Positions 19,499-34,886 of a DNA stretch of 64,000 bases are shown in pieces. Source of the DNA: Pseudomonadota bacterium (GTDB lineage Bacteria > Pseudomonadota > Gammaproteobacteria > Burkholderiales > Burkholderiaceae); NCBI GenBank assembly GCA_040387715.1, contig JAZKDF010000001.1, positions 326,420 through 390,419 of the forward strand. Direction: 5' to 3'. Below the pieces are notes generated by a model. It did not search any database, was not told the origin of the DNA, and saw nothing but the letters and a program-made list of their open reading frames with translations. How positions within the stretch are numbered: the stretch's first letter is position 1; each line of letters begins with the position of its first letter. The position numbers were made by a program, and so were the translations under genes.

Positions 19499-19607
19499 AC
19501 TTTCTCCTTTGCAGTTTCATCTTATGCCCTTTTTTACTGGGTGTCAGCAATGCATGAGATGAAACCAAAACAAAAGGGAGCGCATTTCCGTGATCCCTTT
19601 GTATTGC

Positions 19608-19647
19608 TGGTGGGTCGGGTAAGGCTCGAACACGCGACCAACGGATT
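19608..19647 (-). repeat. att-like copy 3 of the tRNA-Lys 3' half
   Basis: 35/40 identity. It is flanked by a diverged version of the hairpin found at 50279-50319. Confidence 0.85.
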
Positions 19648-20435: not shown

Positions 20436-20722
20436 TAGCCTTAAAGCTTAAAACTGCAAGTTAAATTAATGTTTGCAAAGAATCTCAGGCTCTGGTCGAT
20501 GCTGCCCCAGTTAAGCAAGAAATACTAAAACCATCTTCGGGTGGTTTTTCTTTGGGGAATTGCTTTGGGTCGATAGTAGACTTTTCCAAATTTCAATATT
20601 GCGTTGTCGGTTAACCCGGTAGTTGCCCTGTATCGAGATGCTCATAGTCCAATCGGTCACCCATCGCGGTCCGCTAGATCGCCTGTTGAATCCCCATAGT
20701 GACCACCGCATTCCATTTGGCC

Positions 20723-20808
20723 AAAAGAAAAGGGACCACATTTCTGTGATCCCTTTGTATTACTGGTGGGTCGGGCGAGATTCGAACTCGCGACCAACGG
20801 ATTAAAAG
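20723..20808 (-). repeat. att-like copy 4: perfect 86-bp direct repeat of 50279-50364 (tRNA 3' half plus terminator)
   Basis: Base-for-base identical by manual comparison. Confidence 0.95.
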
Positions 20809-22049: not shown

Positions 22050-22203
22050 TTATGTTTTCAGAAAAATTGTCACAGTGCAGAATAGACCGTGCCATCCCCA
22101 CTCGAAACGTCCATTAAGCCCCGCATTGTTCCAAACAGTCTTCAGATTTGACCATCCTAAAAAGACAAAACCCCCACTATTGCTAGTGAGGGTTTCTTGA
22201 TAC

Positions 22204-22248
22204 TGGTGGGTCGGACGGGATTCAAGCTCGCAACCAACGGATTAAAGG
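22204..22248 (-). repeat. att-like copy 5 of the tRNA-Lys 3' half
   Basis: 39/45 identity. The left flank (22092-22203) is homologous to 34730-34841. Confidence 0.88.
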
Positions 22249-22303
22249 GAGGTAACGCTATTTAAAGGCTAAACTGTAATCGGTTATATAAAAATAGATA
22301 TCT

Positions 22304-23101
22304 ATGCCCCCATTCCTTCAATCTAATTTGCGCGTGGTTGAGTTTGCACCACTGTTGCTGACTATTGCCACTTTTATTTGCATTGCAATTGGTTGGTATT
22401 TTGGGCACTACCGCCTAAACAAGCATCGTGAGGGTGGAATTGTTGTTAGAGACTCTTTAGTTGCTGCAATTTTTGGTTTATCTGCTCTGGTTTTAGGCTT
22501 TACATTTTCTGGGTCTGCATCGAGATACTTTGATCGGATGGATGAAATTAGGGTTCAGGCGCAAACCTTGCAACAGGTATACGGTTCTCTTAAATATCTT
22601 GCCCCAAGCGATCAAATTAAGATTAGAGCTTCTCTTAATGAGTTATTGGATTTAAGGCTGTCCGCATATAAGGACATTAAATCAATGACGGATGTGGATG
22701 TTGAGGGATCCAAGATCATGGCCTCAGTTAGAAGGATTCAGGAGGAGGTAAGCAGAGCAGTAGCGAATGCCCCTGTCGAAAATAAAGGTTTAGTTGCCGA
22801 TTTATTAATACCTCAGGTTAGCAGCCTTTCCTCGACTTATGCTGCGGGGATCGTTAAGAGTAAGTCCCATCCGCCCAGCTTATTAATGAAGTTCTTATTT
22901 GCGATGCTTTGTATTGGAGCATTTTTAATTGGTTATACGATGGCGGTCAAGAAAGAGCATGACTGGCTATTGGCTACACTTTATACGCTTCTAATAGGCA
23001 TATCTCTGTATGTAATACTCTCTTTAGAGGTCCCTAATCTATTGATGCCCTATGATGAGATCAACCGTGATTTCTTGTTGCTCAAAGAGGCAGTGAAGTA
23101 A
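22304..23101 (+). CDS. DUF4239-like membrane protein
   Basis: AIFGLSALVLGFTFS, SHPP and ILSLEVP pattern, with four hydrophobic segments. Confidence 0.7.
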   Translation: MPPFLQSNLRVVEFAPLLLTIATFICIAIGWYFGHYRLNKHREGGIVVRDSLVAAIFGLSALVLGFTFSGSASRYFDRMDEIRVQAQTLQQVYGSLKYLAPSDQIKIRASLNELLDLRLSAYKDIKSMTDVDVEGSKIMASVRRIQEEVSRAVANAPVENKGLVADLLIPQVSSLSSTYAAGIVKSKSHPPSLLMKFLFAMLCIGAFLIGYTMAVKKEHDWLLATLYTLLIGISLYVILSLEVPNLLMPYDEINRDFLLLKEAVK

Positions 23102-23138
23102 CTTATTTACATTTATCCACCATATCAAACTAATCAAT

Positions 23139-24398
23139 ATGCAAAATATACTCAGAGTCAGCCGTCATTTAGTGCTTAGCACTCTGAGCTTATTATTGGT
23201 TGGATGTACTACGGGCATTACCCCAGACTTTGGGCAAATGTCTTCAAAATACGCAAATTCCCTAGAGCAATATCAAATTAATATGATTTTCCAAAACATC
23301 TTGCGTGCCTCTGAAAATAGGCCCGTTAGTTTTTTGGATATGCCAACAATTAACGGTTCTGGATCTATCGGTGTTGCGTCTGGAGTTAGTGCCTTATTTT
23401 CTGGTGGGGCAATACCCTACAACGCTAGCTACAACGTCATTCAGGGTGGACTTTCGTATGCCATACCAAGCACCACTCTCTCGTTAAACAATACATTTAA
23501 TTTCACACAATCATCCCTGGATAACGCTGTATTTTGGAAAAGTTATCTCAATGAGCTTCCTAGGGAAACGGTAAAGTATTTCAATCACAATCACATTCCA
23601 AAAGAAGTGCTTTTGAGTTTAGTGGTTGATGAAATCGAAATTTTTCAACCGAATAGCAAATCTATAGTTCTAATTAATAACCCATTAAGATCAGATCATC
23701 AGCAGTTTCAGCAACAGCTCTATAGGCTTATTGATGATGGCTTTACTGCTGAGCTAATTGATACATCGGAGAAATTAGGACCTCCACTTTCAATGGAAAA
23801 AGTGGTGCCAAGGTTTGGGGACAAGGCCTTTGTGATGTTTAAAGAGTCCAATATCTCTCTCAAGCAAACCAATGATTCTCAAAATCCGCTTTACCAGCCA
23901 ATTCAGATTTCTAATAAATATAAACTTTGTATCAACTCTGATAAGTACGCCAATTACTTGCCTGCAAAAAAATATGGTCAAACACTCTTTTGCGAAGAGA
24001 GTGCTCCCGAAGTTTTATTAAAAACTAGTGCGGCAAAGAAGCGTCAGCCGACATTGATTGTTCGCATTCGCTCTACTAATAATGTTTTTGAGTATCTGGG
24101 GCAAGTTGTGAGGGCTCAACTTTCTGATAACCCTTACTTGGTTACCTTGCCTTCAACGGAAACTACATTCAATAGCAATAGAGGTAAGCTGAATCAGAAT
24201 GCATTGTTAATTGTTAACAAAGATAAGCCAACGCAGAAAGCATTTGCAACTATTGAAGGTTTGGATGGCGATATTTACAGCATTCCTAGTGTAGATAATG
24301 GTTATTCGCCCTTAGCAATCAAATTGCTATCCCAGTTGATGTCGCTTCAAAAGATCCCGGGCAGCATACCGGCCTCACCATCTGTACTCCTGAAATAG
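23139..24398 (+). CDS. Uncharacterised lipoprotein
   Basis: Lipobox LLLVG-C, 419 aa. Confidence 0.7.
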   Translation: MQNILRVSRHLVLSTLSLLLVGCTTGITPDFGQMSSKYANSLEQYQINMIFQNILRASENRPVSFLDMPTINGSGSIGVASGVSALFSGGAIPYNASYNVIQGGLSYAIPSTTLSLNNTFNFTQSSLDNAVFWKSYLNELPRETVKYFNHNHIPKEVLLSLVVDEIEIFQPNSKSIVLINNPLRSDHQQFQQQLYRLIDDGFTAELIDTSEKLGPPLSMEKVVPRFGDKAFVMFKESNISLKQTNDSQNPLYQPIQISNKYKLCINSDKYANYLPAKKYGQTLFCEESAPEVLLKTSAAKKRQPTLIVRIRSTNNVFEYLGQVVRAQLSDNPYLVTLPSTETTFNSNRGKLNQNALLIVNKDKPTQKAFATIEGLDGDIYSIPSVDNGYSPLAIKLLSQLMSLQKIPGSIPASPSVLLK

Positions 24399-24643
24399 CG
24401 GCCTAATATCCAATCTAGAGCTTTAGTATTGCCGATGGGCCGCCTGAGTTTCGGGCTCTCGGCCGGCTACTTAATTGGTCTGCAGCAGGAGGGCTAATCA
24501 ATCTACGCTTCTTGGGAAATGAATTTGACTGGATTCTAGGCGTACTTTCAGAACTTCCGTTTTAACCCCTATTAGATTAATTTAAGCTATAGTGAAAACT
24601 ATCAAATATGCCATTTGGCGCATTGCAAGTGGAAGGGGTGGCG

Positions 24644-24919
24644 ATGAGTTTCACGCGTAGGGATTTTATAAAAAGTCTTGCAGCTACCGCTGCTCTAATG
24701 GGCTCTGCTTCTGCAATTGCTAGCAGTGATTCTGTCGCAAGTAAGGCTGCCATTGAGAAATCCATTAAGGCCAGTTTTGGCGGTGGTTTTTCACTCATTT
24801 CCTATTCCAAATCTGGTGCAACAACCCAAGCCAAAATAGAAAATTTTGGCAATCAATACACCGTCACTTCCATGAATTTGCTTGATTGGAAAATTATTCA
24901 ATCCTCATTAAGCAGCTGA
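24644..24919 (+). CDS. Small twin-arginine (Tat) signal protein upstream of the lodA-like gene
   Basis: MSFTRRDFIKSLAATAALMGSASAIAS, with a GAAGGGG RBS. Confidence 0.75.
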   Translation: MSFTRRDFIKSLAATAALMGSASAIASSDSVASKAAIEKSIKASFGGGFSLISYSKSGATTQAKIENFGNQYTVTSMNLLDWKIIQSSLSS

Positions 24920-24977
24920 TACCTTTTTCATTCTGGGTTTTAGGGTGGTGAAGATTAATTTATTTGAAGGATAAATA

Positions 24978-26978
24978 GTGTCTAGCAAAATCAAGAGCAT
25001 TCGTATTCACCCTGGTATTGGTATGGCCCGCATGGGTGATAGTGATGAGTTTTTTATTGGCCCCGAAGCTCCAGGCCTTGTTGTAGATCCAGGAGGCAGT
25101 AACGGTCCCGGACCCAAAGGGGGTAGTTATCGAGATAGCAAATCTAAGTTAAAAAGGCAGGCGCAACGTTATCGCGTATATGCCTACGATGCTGAGGGTA
25201 ACGTGATTGAGGAGCTCACATCTAAATCTGACCTAGTCAAATCTCTGAGCTGGCGTGTTCACGTCCGCAATATGAAAGCGGCAAACTATGCTTTTCAGGG
25301 TGCATATCTTTTTGACCCAACCCAATTAAGAAACCCATCCATTCAACCGGGCAAGAAACCAATTGAGCGCAATCAATTAATTATTGATCCAGGAGTGCAA
25401 ACCATTGCCTCAGGCCAAAGTGGGCCAGTCGTTATGAAGGGTGATATTTTTACCGGCATCGAAAAAGGTTTGTTGCCAGGGCAGTTGCGATATGAGGGCT
25501 TTACGCCAAAAGATATTTCTAAAGATGTCGAAGTAACTTATAAGCCTGCTAAAGGAATTGAGCTTGGGCAGTTACGTCTTGATGCACAAGATCGCCTGTT
25601 ATTTATTCCGTCTCCTGGCAAGGGGGCTTGCGTTACAACACCTAAGGTAGCTCTATCTAATCCTAGTGAATTCATCAATCCACCCAATGGCCCTGACAAT
25701 GGAAAGAATCCATTAACCAATCAGTTTGCTTACTTTAACGTTCCGGGTTGGTGGGATGATACGTGTGGTGGTGAAATTGATGTAACCATTACATTAAAAG
25801 ATGGCACCGTTTTAAGCACTCGAGACAATGTGAAGGCTGCAACGGATGAGGGAACTCGAAATCCAGCGGCTGGAGCCTGGATTATTACGGCACCACCAAA
25901 ATTTTCTCCATACATGTATCACGTAGTTTCCATTACAGATCGTGTGTATGAGGCATTCCCAGAGGCTTACCCCTACGCCAAACAAAAAACCAACTTTTAT
26001 CGAGACGTTTACCCCATTTTTGCTAACGCTGTAAATTATGGATGGGTGAGTGCAGAAGCCTCCGGTATTGCTAAGGCCCATAGAAATGCAGCGCATGGAC
26101 CAAATCAAGCGGGTAATCTGCTAAGTCCAACCTATATGGCCTTTTTTACGGATCCCTCTGAGAAGGGTAAATCTATGCGGCAGATGGTCTATGCTTTAAT
26201 GCGCCATCCGGCCGGCAAGAATGGGCGCTTAGTCGACTCTTTAATGCCGCCGCCTCCGCAAAAACCGACCAGCTGGAAAAATGATGAATTCAAAAGGGCT
26301 GAGCAAGATAACCTCATGCCTATATTGTGGGGAACCGCTGGCAAGCCAAAGCAAAATGAGCAACTGGGAAATCATTTCCCCAATCAATTTTTAGCCCTTA
26401 CCGCAATTCAGTTAAATCATATTAAAGAATGGGCTGATGGAAATTTTGAGGTTGGAGTTTTGCAGCAGCCGCTCGAATTGGAAAAATTACCCACAAAAGA
26501 TCAGCCGCGCGCTCTTGATGCTTCCGCGTTAGAGCCTACTATCGGTGGAGGTTTTCACCCCGGAATTGAATTCCCCTATTTAATTATTTACCGAGAGTTT
26601 TTTGCTGAAGCATTTCGGGTTGGCAAGAATGTAGAGCCTGGAGCGTTGGCAGCCTATATGTCCAGTCCATGGCATGGTGATTTCTGGTCATGTAATAGTG
26701 CCTGGTGGCCAACTCAGCGCCCAGATGTAGTTTTTGAGTACGATCAGAAGAATCAAACTCGAACTTATAGAGAGTGGTTCAGGGGTTATGACGCAGATGG
26801 CGAGCCATTGTCAGATACTGATGGCTTTAATCAAATGGCGTATGCCTGGTCAAAGTTGGGTATGGTGTTGCCGATTAAAGCGAAGGACGGCAGCTTTGTT
26901 AAGGACAATGGTGCGGTTGTCTTTACTGAGCAAGAGCGAAGCCCGGAGCTGAATCGGCCGCCAGTAAAAAAGAAGTAA
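24978..26978 (+). CDS. LodA/GoxA-family CTQ-dependent amino-acid oxidase
   Basis: IHPGIGMARMG, KRQAQRYRVY, GWWDDTCGG, GGGFHPGIE and PWHGDFWSC..WWPTQRPD motifs. Confidence 0.9.
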   Translation: MSSKIKSIRIHPGIGMARMGDSDEFFIGPEAPGLVVDPGGSNGPGPKGGSYRDSKSKLKRQAQRYRVYAYDAEGNVIEELTSKSDLVKSLSWRVHVRNMKAANYAFQGAYLFDPTQLRNPSIQPGKKPIERNQLIIDPGVQTIASGQSGPVVMKGDIFTGIEKGLLPGQLRYEGFTPKDISKDVEVTYKPAKGIELGQLRLDAQDRLLFIPSPGKGACVTTPKVALSNPSEFINPPNGPDNGKNPLTNQFAYFNVPGWWDDTCGGEIDVTITLKDGTVLSTRDNVKAATDEGTRNPAAGAWIITAPPKFSPYMYHVVSITDRVYEAFPEAYPYAKQKTNFYRDVYPIFANAVNYGWVSAEASGIAKAHRNAAHGPNQAGNLLSPTYMAFFTDPSEKGKSMRQMVYALMRHPAGKNGRLVDSLMPPPPQKPTSWKNDEFKRAEQDNLMPILWGTAGKPKQNEQLGNHFPNQFLALTAIQLNHIKEWADGNFEVGVLQQPLELEKLPTKDQPRALDASALEPTIGGGFHPGIEFPYLIIYREFFAEAFRVGKNVEPGALAAYMSSPWHGDFWSCNSAWWPTQRPDVVFEYDQKNQTRTYREWFRGYDADGEPLSDTDGFNQMAYAWSKLGMVLPIKAKDGSFVKDNGAVVFTEQERSPELNRPPVKKK

Positions 26979-26984
26979 TGGGCA

Positions 26985-28172
26985 GTGCTGAATTTAGCTG
27001 ACGCTTTTGGATTGGATTGGGATGTCGTCATTATTGGCGCCGGACCCGCAGGCTCAGCAACTGCTATTACGTTGACATCCCTGGGTCAGCGAGTCCTACT
27101 GATCGATGAGAAGGTGGCGGCTAAATATAAATTAGGTGAGTCTCTGCCACCCGCCTCAGTTGATATCGTGAGTCACTTCTTGGGTGATCTAGATTCTCCC
27201 GATCGAAAAGCTATTGGCCTGTTCAAGACGGCCGGTAATATTTCCACATGGTCTGGTGAGCAACAGGATCATGCTGATTTCTTTTTTACTGCAAAAGGAT
27301 TTGGTTTATGTATTGACCGACTTGCTTTTGATGAGGCGCTTCGTTTGCGCGCGTTAGAGCTAGGCGCATCTTTGCAGAGGGGAATCAGCTTTGAGTCGTG
27401 CGCTCGTAGTTCTGAGTCTGGATTTAGTTGGGATATTATCCTTAATTCCCCATCAAAAGTAGAGCATCATCGCGCACGCTATTTAGTCGACTGCTCAGGT
27501 CGTCGCGCGGTGCTTAGCAAGATGCTTGGTATTCCTGTCGTTGAAAATGAAGACAAGCTATTTGCCTATGCACAATGGTTTACTAGTGATGTAGCGGATG
27601 ATGACTGCTTTACTCGTATTGAGGCTGTGGAGAATGGCTGGTGGTACAGCAATCGGGTGCCTGGTGATGACCTTGCCGAAAATAAGCGCTTAGTTGTTTT
27701 TTATTCAGATAGAGACTTGCCAGATGGTAAAAAAGCTGGGACCTTAGGGGGTTTTGATGAACTTCTTAGTGAGACCAGCCAAATTGCACCTCTTCTGAAG
27801 AATGGTGCATATCAGGCTTCGGGAGTAATTCGGGGCGCGCCTGCTAATGGTCAGCGTTTAAGTGAATTCTGCGGAGATGCTTGGATGGCGGTTGGGGATG
27901 CAGCGCAGGCCTATGACCCGCTGTCATCGCAGGGTATTGATAAGGCACTGAGAACAGGTAGTCACGCTGGCCACCTAATTCATTATGCTTTGACGGATGA
28001 GTCCGGCAATACCTTAGGCGCTAATAATCCCTATATTCAACAATACAACGAAAAACAGCAGCAGCTTTGGGAAGAATACCAATCCCAAAGGGCTTACTAC
28101 TATGGTATTCAGACTCGTTGGGCTGATCAGCCATTTTGGCTACGTCGTCACAATTATTCGACTGTAATTTGA
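26985..28172 (+). CDS. LodB/GoxB-family flavoprotein (CTQ biogenesis)
   Basis: IIGAGPAG, GWWY and AVGDAAQAYDPLSSQGI motifs. It directly follows the lodA-like gene. Confidence 0.85.
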   Translation: MLNLADAFGLDWDVVIIGAGPAGSATAITLTSLGQRVLLIDEKVAAKYKLGESLPPASVDIVSHFLGDLDSPDRKAIGLFKTAGNISTWSGEQQDHADFFFTAKGFGLCIDRLAFDEALRLRALELGASLQRGISFESCARSSESGFSWDIILNSPSKVEHHRARYLVDCSGRRAVLSKMLGIPVVENEDKLFAYAQWFTSDVADDDCFTRIEAVENGWWYSNRVPGDDLAENKRLVVFYSDRDLPDGKKAGTLGGFDELLSETSQIAPLLKNGAYQASGVIRGAPANGQRLSEFCGDAWMAVGDAAQAYDPLSSQGIDKALRTGSHAGHLIHYALTDESGNTLGANNPYIQQYNEKQQQLWEEYQSQRAYYYGIQTRWADQPFWLRRHNYSTVI

Positions 28173-28858
28173 ACGATACCTCTGGATTTTCCAGAATCAG
28201 AATCAATTGTTTTTAATGAAGCTAGTAAATCACTAGTCTTGACCCAAAATGGCGGATATTTAAATTTAGCTACATCTAAAATTAACACTGAATCTGATTT
28301 AGAGTCATAGGCGCCAATCGGTGAGAAATGTCCACTCCCTGCTTGGTTTAATACTTTCCGATCAAAGTCAGCCATCACGCGTTGATTTGGATTGGCAAGT
28401 GTAGATTTGACTATATTCCTGAGTTGATCAACTGTGAGATCGCTCCCATAGTAAATTTTGGGGTTTGCTCCCAGCGCAGTTAAATATTGACGTATTTGCT
28501 CTAAAGTTAAGCCACCATTTAGTACATCATCCCGACTCTTAATCTTAGTGGTTGCTTCGTTAAAGATGCTTTCTTCTGTAAAGAATGGGTGAGGCGCAAG
28601 TTCTGGGGTGATCGGGCGAACCATCTTTGGAAGACTATTTAGAGTGGCTGCCATCGATGATATTCCACAAAAGGTAGTGCGCTCTTGAGTATCGACATAG
28701 CTAGCGAGTGAAAAATATTGACGGTTATAGTCAGAGTTCAATAGGCGGCTTGAACCTGCCTTTGTATTGATATATACCAAGTCCTGGCAAAAGACGTTGG
28801 ATATCAATCCGAACAGCAGAAAAGTTGCTGCAATCAAACTTTTAGTATTGCGGTTCAT
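28154..28858 (-). CDS. Secreted phytochelatin-synthase-like (papain-fold) protein
   Basis: Signal peptide, with a Cys-His-Asp triad in TFCG, GHFSPIGAYD and LILDVAKFKYPPFWV. Confidence 0.85.
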   Translation of the reverse strand: MNRNTKSLIAATFLLFGLISNVFCQDLVYINTKAGSSRLLNSDYNRQYFSLASYVDTQERTTFCGISSMAATLNSLPKMVRPITPELAPHPFFTEESIFNEATTKIKSRDDVLNGGLTLEQIRQYLTALGANPKIYYGSDLTVDQLRNIVKSTLANPNQRVMADFDRKVLNQAGSGHFSPIGAYDSKSDSVLILDVAKFKYPPFWVKTSDLLASLKTIDSDSGKSRGIVQITVE

Positions 28859-29082
28859 AGCGCTGCCTTTAAATAATGGATTACTTTGATGGTTAAAGTA
28901 TTTTTATGAGAACAAGATATCACAAGTTTTTATGGATATTGGATGGGCCTCGACCCAAATTCGCTAGAGGTGGATGCGAGCGCTTTCCCCCTTCAGGCGT
29001 AATCAATTGCTTTATCTTAGGCCCTTGAGAGTTTTGTGAATCCAGCAATACAAAAGCCGCCCGAAGGTGGCTTTTGTATTGC

Positions 29083-29127
29083 TGGTGGGTCGGGCGAGAT
29101 TCGAGCTCGCGACCAACAGATTAAAAG
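29083..29127 (-). repeat. att-like copy 6 of the tRNA-Lys 3' half
   Basis: 43/45 identity. Adjacent 17-bp perfect inverted repeat at 29042-29085. Confidence 0.92.
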
Positions 29128-34690: not shown

Positions 34691-34841
34691 GTGTCGCGTT
34701 TCGAGATGCTTAGTCTCATTCAGCGTCCACCATCCCCACTCGAAAAGTTCACAAAATTCCGCATTGTTCCTGGCAGTCACTACATTTCGCCAGCCTATAA
34801 AGACAAAACCCCCACTATTGCTAGTGAGGGTTTCTTGATAC

Positions 34842-34886
34842 TGGTGGGTCGGGCGAGATTCGAACTCGCGACCAACGGATTAAAAG
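34842..34886 (-). repeat. att-like copy 7; distal attachment site of the IME
   Basis: 45/45 identity to 50320-50364, followed by IHF-like and arm-type motifs. Confidence 0.95.

What the first reader, a model, noticed from the sequence alone, without database searches (positions are those of the whole stretch)
24644..24977. Tiny Tat-signal protein directly upstream of a signal-less LodA homolog
Seen: a 91-aa protein with a clear TRRDFIK signal and a ~65-aa mature part, 58 bp before the oxidase, which has no signal peptide. Established: Tat exports folded cofactor-loaded complexes by hitch-hiking (e.g. hydrogenase subunits). Inference: this could be an export carrier or small subunit for the CTQ enzyme. 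I do not know such a partner for Lod/Gox systems.
Basis: inference. Interest (0 to 1): 0.55.

Follow-up and report, generated by a model that had tools for sequence, protein, structure and literature searches.

The report
Tat-signal escort protein for LodA-like oxidase
A conserved 91-residue protein with an export signal for folded proteins is always encoded just upstream of one signal-less clade of LodA/GoxA-type quinone oxidases, so it most likely carries the finished enzyme across the membrane, a partner not described for this enzyme family.

Summary
Window 24644-24919 (+) encodes a 91-aa protein with a near-consensus Tat signal (T-R-R-D-F-I-K, hydrophobic core, A-I-A cleavage site) and a roughly 65-aa mature part. 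It ends 58 bp before a LodA/GoxA-family oxidase gene that has no signal peptide, and a LodB-type maturase gene follows.

The small ORF is a real gene (dN/dS about 0.1). It founds an unnamed family: 90 clusters at 50% identity, no Pfam domain beyond the signal.

Linkage holds in both directions. All 44 testable genomic loci found through the small protein have the oxidase and maturase directly downstream. All 30 loci found through the oxidase have the small gene directly upstream.

The partnership is confined to one deep LodA clade, left ungrouped in the 2015 survey. None of 24 other LodA-like loci has the small gene. GoxA-type enzymes carry the Tat signal on their own N-terminus.

Best reading (about 0.6): a dedicated Tat "hitchhiker" escort or small subunit that exports the oxidase after its cofactor is matured in the cytoplasm. 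Binding and export are inferred, not shown.

Earlier scan notes (e1-4126567, e1-4128238) report LodA-like operons with Tat mini-proteins on other DNA. I could not test whether those are homologous.

The parts
24644..24919 (+). Gene for the 91-aa Tat-signal small protein (the proposed escort or small subunit), stop codon included
   Evidence: conserved family, invariant RR, purifying selection.
24644..24721 (+). Predicted Tat signal peptide, residues 1-26: n-region with T-R-R-D-F-I-K, h-region SLAATAALMGSA, and A-I-A at positions -3 to -1
   Evidence: The same architecture appears in the alignments. The cleavage site is inferred from the AxA rule.
24722..24916 (+). Mature part, residues 27-91: a short variable linker and then a conserved ~55-aa domain made of one helix (26-45) packed on four beta-strands. 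Its motifs are IEKSIKASFGGGFS and FGNxYxVxS..L.DWKI.
   Evidence: AlphaFold2 pLDDT is 84-91 over residues 31-90. Conservation is shown. There is no specific structural relative.
24920..24977 (+). 58-bp spacer with the ribosome-binding site GAAGGA for the oxidase gene; no terminator-like site on the + strand
24978..26978 (+). Signal-less LodA/GoxA-family CTQ oxidase, 666 aa, GTG start. The cofactor residues are Cys572 and Trp577 in DFWSCNSAWWP.
   Evidence: It scores below the GoxA and LodA equivalog cut-offs. It belongs to a monophyletic clade.
26985..28172 (+). LodB/GoxB-type flavoprotein maturase, 395 aa. The Rossmann motif lies at its N-terminus, so it has no signal and is cytoplasmic.
   Evidence: It is conserved downstream in the related loci.
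22092..22246 (.). Left boundary repeat of the ~6.9-kb islet that carries the module (copy of a tRNA-3'-end-like sequence)
   Evidence: families D1 and D2.
29040..29122 (.). Right boundary repeat of the islet (same tRNA-3'-end-like sequence)
   Evidence: family D1.

Best explanation
The small protein is a dedicated Tat 'hitchhiker' escort, or small subunit, for the LodA-like quinoprotein. Proposed sequence of events: the oxidase folds in the cytoplasm. The cytoplasmic flavoprotein LodB starts formation of its cysteine tryptophylquinone cofactor (Cys572-Trp577). The ~55-aa helix-plus-sheet domain of the small protein binds the finished oxidase. The small protein's twin-arginine signal takes the complex to TatABC, and signal peptidase I cuts after A-I-A. 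This releases a periplasmic complex, which may be exported further, so that H2O2 is made outside the cytoplasm. Shown here: the signal, the signal-less cargo, strict two-way gene linkage, restriction to one oxidase clade, TatC in the genome, and a Tat signal in cis in GoxA relatives. Inferred: binding, co-export, cleavage and the final location.
For: The Tat motif is near-consensus and RR is invariant across the family. From the small-protein side, 44 of 44 testable loci in Alpha- and Betaproteobacteria have the oxidase 12-158 bp downstream on the same strand, followed by lodB where the locus reaches that far (39 loci); the one exception ends at the contig edge. A metagenomic relative only 35% identical keeps the same order. 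From the oxidase side, 30 of 30 loci have the small gene directly upstream. Only these three genes are conserved across loci, so the module travels as a unit. The oxidase has no signal in 44 loci or in 120 database relatives. None of 24 LodA-like loci outside the clade has the small gene or any upstream Tat mini-ORF, and one has its own Tat signal. GoxA carries the signal in cis (PMC3948610; PMC4417212 Group II). LodB is cytoplasmic, so the cofactor is made before export, which is the usual reason for using Tat. TatC is present. A cofactor-less dedicated Tat escort encoded upstream of its catalytic subunit has a precedent in the gamma subunit of FAD-glucose dehydrogenase (PMC6719666). A run of 13 consecutive conserved residues (EKSIKASFGGGFS) in a 55-aa domain includes residues that cannot all be buried, which suggests a binding surface.
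Against: There is no direct evidence of binding or export. Distance-matrix correlation gives no specific small-oxidase signal: the partial r for small and LodA given LodB is 0.16, against 0.54 for small and LodB given LodA. No natural fusion of the two proteins was found, although that search is weak. M. mediterranea LodA reaches the medium without a signal or a partner, so lacking a signal does not by itself require a carrier. The fold is generic (cystatin, NTF2 or PepSY-like; best Z 7.2), and many such domains are inhibitors. The gaps between the genes mostly argue against strict translational coupling.
Confidence: 0.6

Rival explanations
1. The small protein is exported by Tat on its own and acts in the periplasm as a functional partner of the system, for example as an inhibitor, regulator or binding protein. 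The oxidase stays cytoplasmic or leaves by another route, as LodA of Marinomonas does.
For: The helix-plus-four-strand fold resembles cystatin and PepSY-type inhibitor modules at Z 5-7. Many LodA-like enzymes lack both a signal and a partner. No interaction signal was found.
Against: A 65-aa protein with no cofactor has no evident need for the folded-protein export pathway. Strict linkage to one signal-less clade, together with mutual exclusion with a cis Tat signal, is explained more simply by co-export. A cytoplasmic enzyme that produces H2O2 would be harmful to the cell.
Confidence: 0.17
2. This is a variant of the hitchhiker reading in which the signal is not cleaved. The small protein then stays in the inner membrane as an N-terminal anchor, holding the oxidase on the periplasmic face, as Rieske subunits and some arsenite oxidases do.
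For: Uncleaved Tat signals that act as anchors are established (PMC13673990). A variable linker of 10-25 residues follows the hydrophobic region.
Against: An AxA-type site (AIA, SMA, AIA, AMA and similar) follows the hydrophobic region in most members. The h-region is short and rich in Ala and Gly.
Confidence: 0.1
3. The small protein is a maturation or assembly factor that works with LodB on the oxidase precursor. In this reading the Tat signal mainly serves quality control or timing.
For: Pairwise distances of the small protein track LodB more closely than the oxidase. LodB-type maturases form complexes with their substrates (PMC7876137, listed; not read here).
Against: LodA, GoxA and the 24 outgroup operons mature without such a gene. 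The small protein has no conserved Cys, His or other cofactor-binding residues. Known Tat chaperones do not carry signals themselves.
Confidence: 0.08
4. The small ORF and the oxidase gene are the two pieces of an ancestral GoxA-like gene with a Tat signal, split by a frameshift or a stop codon.
For: In several loci the two genes are in the same frame and separated by one stop codon plus about 12 nt.
Against: The two-gene state is conserved in more than 70 loci, in varying frames and with gaps of 12-158 bp. The small protein has its own conserved folded domain under purifying selection. GoxA has no counterpart of this domain; its signal runs straight into LodA_N. No fused form was found.
Confidence: 0.02

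Closest known systems
Gamma ('hitchhiker') subunit of FAD-dependent dehydrogenase complexes, e.g. Burkholderia cepacia glucose dehydrogenase (PMC6719666)
   Same: It is a small, cofactor-less protein whose main recognisable feature is a Tat signal. It is encoded directly upstream of a signal-less catalytic subunit that receives its cofactor in the cytoplasm, and it is needed for secretion of that subunit.
   Different: There is no sequence relationship: Pfam found only TAT_signal in the window protein. The gamma subunit is 168 aa with an all-helical mature part of 121 aa, whereas this protein is 91 aa with a helix plus four strands. The cargo is a CTQ quinoprotein and not a GMC flavoprotein, and no cytochrome subunit is conserved next to it.
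GoxA (CTQ-dependent glycine oxidase) and Group II LodA-like proteins
   Same: They share the enzyme superfamily, the downstream maturase gene and a twin-arginine signal associated with the enzyme (PMC3948610; PMC4417212).
   Different: In GoxA the signal is part of the oxidase itself. Here it sits on a separate protein with its own folded domain. The window oxidase scores 195 bits against a GoxA cut-off of 750, is 25-29% identical to GoxA-type proteins, and forms a separate clade.
LodA (L-lysine epsilon-oxidase) / LodB of Marinomonas mediterranea
   Same: Both oxidases are signal-less and start at the same conserved N-terminal motif. Both are followed by a flavoprotein maturase and have the Cys and Trp of CTQ.
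   Different: No small upstream gene is reported for lodAB. LodA scores 116 bits against a cut-off of 600. In LodA the cofactor Cys and Trp are 65 residues apart, here 5.
Classical Tat hitchhiker pairs: [NiFe]-hydrogenase small/large subunits, Aio arsenite oxidase, PaoABC
   Same: One signal on the small partner exports a folded, cofactor-loaded, signal-less large partner (PMC13673990; PMC4273604).
   Different: In those pairs the signal-bearing subunit is itself a redox subunit with Fe-S clusters. This protein has no conserved cofactor ligands.

Membership tests
Twin-arginine (Tat) signal peptide (TIGR01409 / PF10518) | S/T-R-R-x-F-L-K motif in the n-region | tested here: met
   The motif is T-R-R-D-F-I-K at residues 4-10. 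TIGR01409 scores 22.9 against a cut-off of 16.7, and PF10518 scores 22.6 against 22.7. RR is invariant in both family alignments.
Twin-arginine (Tat) signal peptide (TIGR01409 / PF10518) | Moderately hydrophobic h-region followed by an AxA signal-peptidase site | tested here: met
   SLAATAALMGSASAIA|SS, read from the sequence. The same layout occurs in homologues.
Twin-arginine (Tat) signal peptide (TIGR01409 / PF10518) | Export depends on TatABC and on the RR pair | not testable with these tools
   TatC is present in the genome. Dependence itself needs tatC and RR-to-KK mutants.
Tat hitchhiker escort / small subunit (functional class) | Only one partner carries the signal and the cargo has none | tested here: met
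   An in-frame stop lies just upstream of the oxidase start in 44 loci. The 119 full-length relatives among the 120 best hits start about 9 residues before the IRIHPGIG-type motif; the remaining row is an N-terminally truncated fragment.
Tat hitchhiker escort / small subunit (functional class) | The partners are encoded together and inherited together | tested here: met
   44 of 44 loci from the small-protein side and 30 of 30 from the oxidase side. Only the three genes are conserved across loci. Co-transcription was not tested.
Tat hitchhiker escort / small subunit (functional class) | The cargo acquires its cofactor in the cytoplasm before export | tested here: inconclusive
   The LodB-type maturase has no signal and has an N-terminal Rossmann motif. 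A cytoplasmic site for CTQ formation is inferred from that, not measured.
Tat hitchhiker escort / small subunit (functional class) | A physical complex forms and is co-translocated | not testable with these tools
   The structure tool folds single chains only. The distance-correlation test was uninformative.
FAD-dehydrogenase gamma subunit family (gluconate 2-dehydrogenase subunit 3 type) | Sequence homology to the family and a helical mature domain | tested here: not met
   Pfam and NCBIfam scans at E up to 0.1 return only Tat-signal models. The predicted fold is one helix plus four strands, against five helices in the gamma subunit.
LodA/GoxA CTQ oxidase operon (for the downstream genes) | LodA_N and LodA_C domains, the Cys and Trp of CTQ, and an adjacent LodB/GoxB flavoprotein | tested here: met
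   The oxidase is below both equivalog cut-offs, so it is a family member but neither LodA nor GoxA proper.
Cystatin / PepSY / NTF2-like fold | Clear structural match standing above background | tested here: inconclusive
   The best Foldseek E-value is 0.05. The best VIA Z is 7.2, within the range the tool calls common for unrelated chains.

The most novel reading that the evidence does not exclude
This is a new, non-homologous family of minimal, cofactor-less Tat escort proteins with a mature part of about 55-65 aa. If confirmed it would be among the smallest dedicated hitchhiker carriers. It would also show that a single enzyme superfamily (LodA/GoxA quinoproteins) solves export of a protein-derived-cofactor enzyme in two interchangeable ways: a signal in cis (GoxA) or a signal in trans on a dedicated adaptor (this clade). 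The self-contained three-gene cassette spreads horizontally between Alpha- and Betaproteobacteria, which would make it a portable module for exporting a folded enzyme.
Probability: 0.5. Interest if true: 0.65.

Novelty: new variant of a known kind. Interest (0 to 1): 0.58.

Why it matters
How LodA-like oxidases leave the cell has never been settled, and most of them have no signal. This finding gives a concrete mechanism for one whole, uncharacterised clade, the one left ungrouped ("None") in the 2015 survey. That clade includes Nitrobacter, Pusillimonas, Bradyrhizobium, Brucella and freshwater Polynucleobacter-type bacteria. The mechanism can be tested by genetics.

The finding also adds a third gene to an operon that is annotated everywhere as two genes plus a "hypothetical protein" or "Tat signal domain-containing protein". 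It defines a protein family with no Pfam entry. Dedicated cofactor-less Tat escorts have so far been documented mainly for FAD-dehydrogenase complexes, so this would widen that short list.

There are practical consequences. Heterologous production of these H2O2-forming quinoproteins may need the small gene as well as lodB. Localisation predictors that score each protein alone will wrongly call the oxidase cytoplasmic.

Tried and rejected
- **The look-up of encoding contigs:** I used the search for related loci and the genome search instead.
- **Fusions:** a search among longer proteins for small-protein/oxidase fusions found none. The tool itself calls that weak evidence.
- **Distant members in metagenomes:** the diverse alignment A2 was too variable to build a search pattern. 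The narrower A3 returned two loci. One is a true, linked locus (L048). The other is a chance motif match inside an unrelated 321-aa ORF (L049) and was rejected.
- **Structural relatives:** Foldseek against PDB, VIA-align wide, a profile search against PDB sequences and the ESM Atlas gave only generic or sub-threshold matches. No family was assigned.
- **Mirror-tree correlation:** all three proteins co-vary, and there is no specific small-oxidase signal. I treat this as uninformative.
- **Plasmid collection:** no member of this clade was found.
- **Promoter and terminator scan:** nothing above the shuffled expectation.
- **Small protein as oxidase substrate:** the small protein has conserved Lys and Gly in KSIKASFGGGF, so I considered it as a substrate. 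I rejected this because the lysines are not conserved in the wider family.
- **Complex prediction by read-through:** I considered folding a read-through small-oxidase translation as a stand-in for a complex prediction. I did not run it, because the tool returns no inter-domain error or coordinates, so the result could not be interpreted.

Full report
**Observation.** Window 24644-24919 (+) is an ORF of 91 codons. Its product starts MSFTRRDFIKSLAATAALMGSASAIA and continues with about 65 further residues. The N-terminus matches the twin-arginine signal models: TIGR01409 at 22.9 bits against a cut-off of 16.7, and PF10518 at 22.6 against 22.7. It has the expected three parts, namely T-R-R-D-F-I-K, an Ala/Gly-rich hydrophobic core, and A-I-A at positions -3 to -1. 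After a 58-bp spacer containing GAAGGA, a GTG at 24978 opens a 666-aa protein with LodA_N (2e-40) and LodA_C (4e-26). An in-frame TAA two codons upstream excludes a hidden N-terminal extension. The conserved IRIHPGIG motif begins at residue 9, as in solved LodA. A LodB/GoxB-type flavoprotein gene follows at 26985-28172.

**The small ORF is a real gene and founds a family.** A word-indexed search found 65 clusters of 91-114 aa at 42-88% identity. A profile search of 1.84 billion representatives found 90 clusters at 50% identity, almost all 88-118 aa. Of the 85 short hits, 72 show RR followed by a hydrophobic residue near the N-terminus; the rest are mostly fragments or sequences with no N-terminus on record. 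RR is invariant in both alignments. After a variable linker comes a conserved domain with the motifs IEKSIKASFGGGFS and FGNxYxVxS..L.DWKI. Against four close homologues dN/dS is 0.11-0.13, and 0.06-0.10 for the mature part. Pfam and NCBIfam recognise nothing beyond the signal.

**Linkage, from the small-protein side.** A scan of one genome per species returned 45 loci. They come from Alcaligenaceae-type Betaproteobacteria, Polynucleobacter, Nitrobacter, Bradyrhizobium, Tardiphaga, Phyllobacterium, Brucella, Paramesorhizobium, Limobrevibacterium and others. In 44 of them a homologue of the window oxidase (74-94% identical) starts 12-158 bp downstream on the same strand, followed by the maturase wherever the locus reaches that far (39 loci). 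The remaining locus ends at the contig edge right after the small gene. A metagenomic relative only 35% identical to the window protein keeps the same order, with an oxidase 65% identical. Three genomes searched whole contain exactly one copy, the one beside the oxidase. No other gene is conserved around the trio.

**Linkage, from the oxidase side.** This sample is independent of any small-protein pattern. The oxidase was searched in 301 genomes of the family that contains Allopusillimonas, and 36 genomes had it. All 30 loci fetched have the small gene directly upstream on the same strand, with its RR motif.

**Specificity.** The oxidase has no signal in any of the 44 loci. Most start with a valine-type (GTG) codion at the aligned position, with a stop just upstream. 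None of the 120 best database relatives, down to 59% identity, has a signal either. These sequences form one clade with full support on a long stem. The 2015 survey of the family listed members of this clade (Nitrobacter sp. Nb-311A NB311A_15287, Nham_2642, Pusillimonas PT7_3642) as group "None" and mentions no upstream gene (PMC4417212). Outside the clade, an unbiased Pfam LodA_N search of 800 Pseudomonadota genomes gave 24 other LodA-like loci, all 22-29% identical to the window protein. None has a member of the small family or any credible upstream Tat mini-ORF. One carries its own Tat signal, several are catalase fusions, and the rest have no signal. GoxA of M. mediterranea and nearly all Group II proteins carry a twin-arginine signal on the oxidase itself (PMC3948610; PMC4417212). 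I confirmed this on an annotated goxA of Martelella, where MKRRDFLSS... runs into the LodA_N motif about 40 residues later. Within one superfamily the signal is therefore found either in cis or, in this clade only, in trans.

**Structure.** With the family alignment, AlphaFold2 predicts a disordered signal, then one helix (26-45) packed on four antiparallel strands, at pLDDT 84-91. Foldseek finds nothing below E = 0.05. VIA-align gives Z of at most 7.2 to cystatin, NTF2, VirB8 and PepSY-type domains, a range the tool describes as common for unrelated chains. A profile search of PDB sequences is empty. The domain has no conserved Cys or His ligands, so it is not a redox subunit.

**Mechanism.** The maturase has no signal and so works in the cytoplasm. 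The oxidase therefore folds and receives its cofactor (Cys572 and Trp577 in DFWSCNSAWWP) before any export, which is the situation Tat handles. The genome has TatC. The simplest reading is that the small protein binds the finished oxidase and lends it its signal, the hitchhiker mechanism known from hydrogenases, arsenite oxidase and PaoABC. Its closest parallel is the cofactor-less gamma subunit of FAD-dependent dehydrogenases, which is also encoded just upstream of its cargo (PMC6719666). I put this at about 0.6. An uncleaved-anchor version is a sub-variant at about 0.1.

**What is missing is any direct sign of binding.** A distance-matrix comparison shows that all three proteins co-vary (r = 0.83-0.92) but gives no specific small-oxidase signal. 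No natural fusion was found. The rivals are an independently exported periplasmic partner or inhibitor (0.17), a maturation factor (0.08) and a split gene (0.02). These explain the mutual exclusion with a cis signal, or the conserved separate domain, less well.

**Context.** The trio lies in a ~6.9-kb islet (about 22246-29040) bounded by copies of a tRNA-3'-end-like repeat that recurs at 19565, 20721, 22092-22246, 29040 and 34799. The genome is about 2.03 Mb and Polynucleobacter-like. None of 24 same-genus genomes has either the small gene or the oxidase, and neither does an order-level sample of 400 genomes. The cassette was therefore acquired horizontally. Its three genes, and only those, recur in unrelated neighbourhoods.

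**Earlier notes of this scan.** Two notes (e1-4126567, e1-4128238) report LodA-like operons with upstream Tat mini-proteins in other genomes, one of them with a pentahaem cytochrome. No sequence look-alike was indexed, so I could not test whether they belong to this family. They are leads only. No cytochrome gene is conserved next to the clade studied here.

**Verdict.** The mechanism type is known; the escort family, its cargo family and the cis/trans alternation of the signal are new.

Noticed in passing
window 19565-19647, 20721-20803, 22092-22246, 29040-29122, 34730-34884: There are five copies of a tRNA-3'-end-like sequence (core TGGTGGGTCGGGCGAGATTCGAACTCGCGACCAACGGATT). They divide the region into a tandem array of small islets, and the oxidase cassette occupies the one between 22246 and 29040. 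ARAGORN finds no intact tRNA in 15000-36000.
   Followed up: partly
window 24978 and the aligned start in L003-L047: The oxidase gene uses a non-ATG start almost everywhere. About 38 of 44 loci read valine (GTG-type) at the aligned first codon, 4 read leucine and 2 read ATG. This could keep oxidase synthesis below that of the escort.
   Followed up: no
window 26691-26708 (oxidase residues 572-577): The cofactor Cys and Trp are only 5 residues apart (DFWSCNSAWWP), against 65 in LodA. The segment gives a weak match to the quinohemoprotein amine dehydrogenase gamma subunit: Pfam E = 1e-3 and NCBIfam E = 0.013.
   Followed up: partly
L003-L047 compared with window 24978-26978: The oxidase is unusually conserved (74-94% identity between Alpha- and Betaproteobacteria; mean p-distance 0.18). 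The maturase (0.29) and the escort (0.39) in the same loci are less conserved.
   Followed up: partly
L042, L047, L093, L095, L103, L106: In several genomes the escort and oxidase genes are in the same frame, separated by a single stop codon plus about 12 nt. Read-through would give a fusion protein. It is not known whether this ever happens.
   Followed up: no
L100 1498-4002: In one genome the oxidase ORF is 834 aa, about 170 aa longer at the C-terminus. The maturase region is split into two overlapping ORFs. This could be a decayed copy or an assembly error.
   Followed up: no
window 28154-28858 (-), 23139-24398 (+), 22304-23101 (+): The other genes in the islet are a secreted phytochelatin-synthase-like protein (Pfam 2e-54), a 419-aa lipoprotein-like protein with no family match, and a protein with a sub-threshold bestrophin-like match (31.4 bits, cut-off 32). 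None is conserved next to the cassette in other genomes.
   Followed up: partly
L050, L052, L064, L067, L068 (other genomes): Several LodA-like proteins outside the clade are about 1000 aa long, with a large N-terminal extension that reads like the catalase-related domain described for Group III (PMC4417212; bioRxiv 10.64898/2026.03.27.714854).
   Followed up: no
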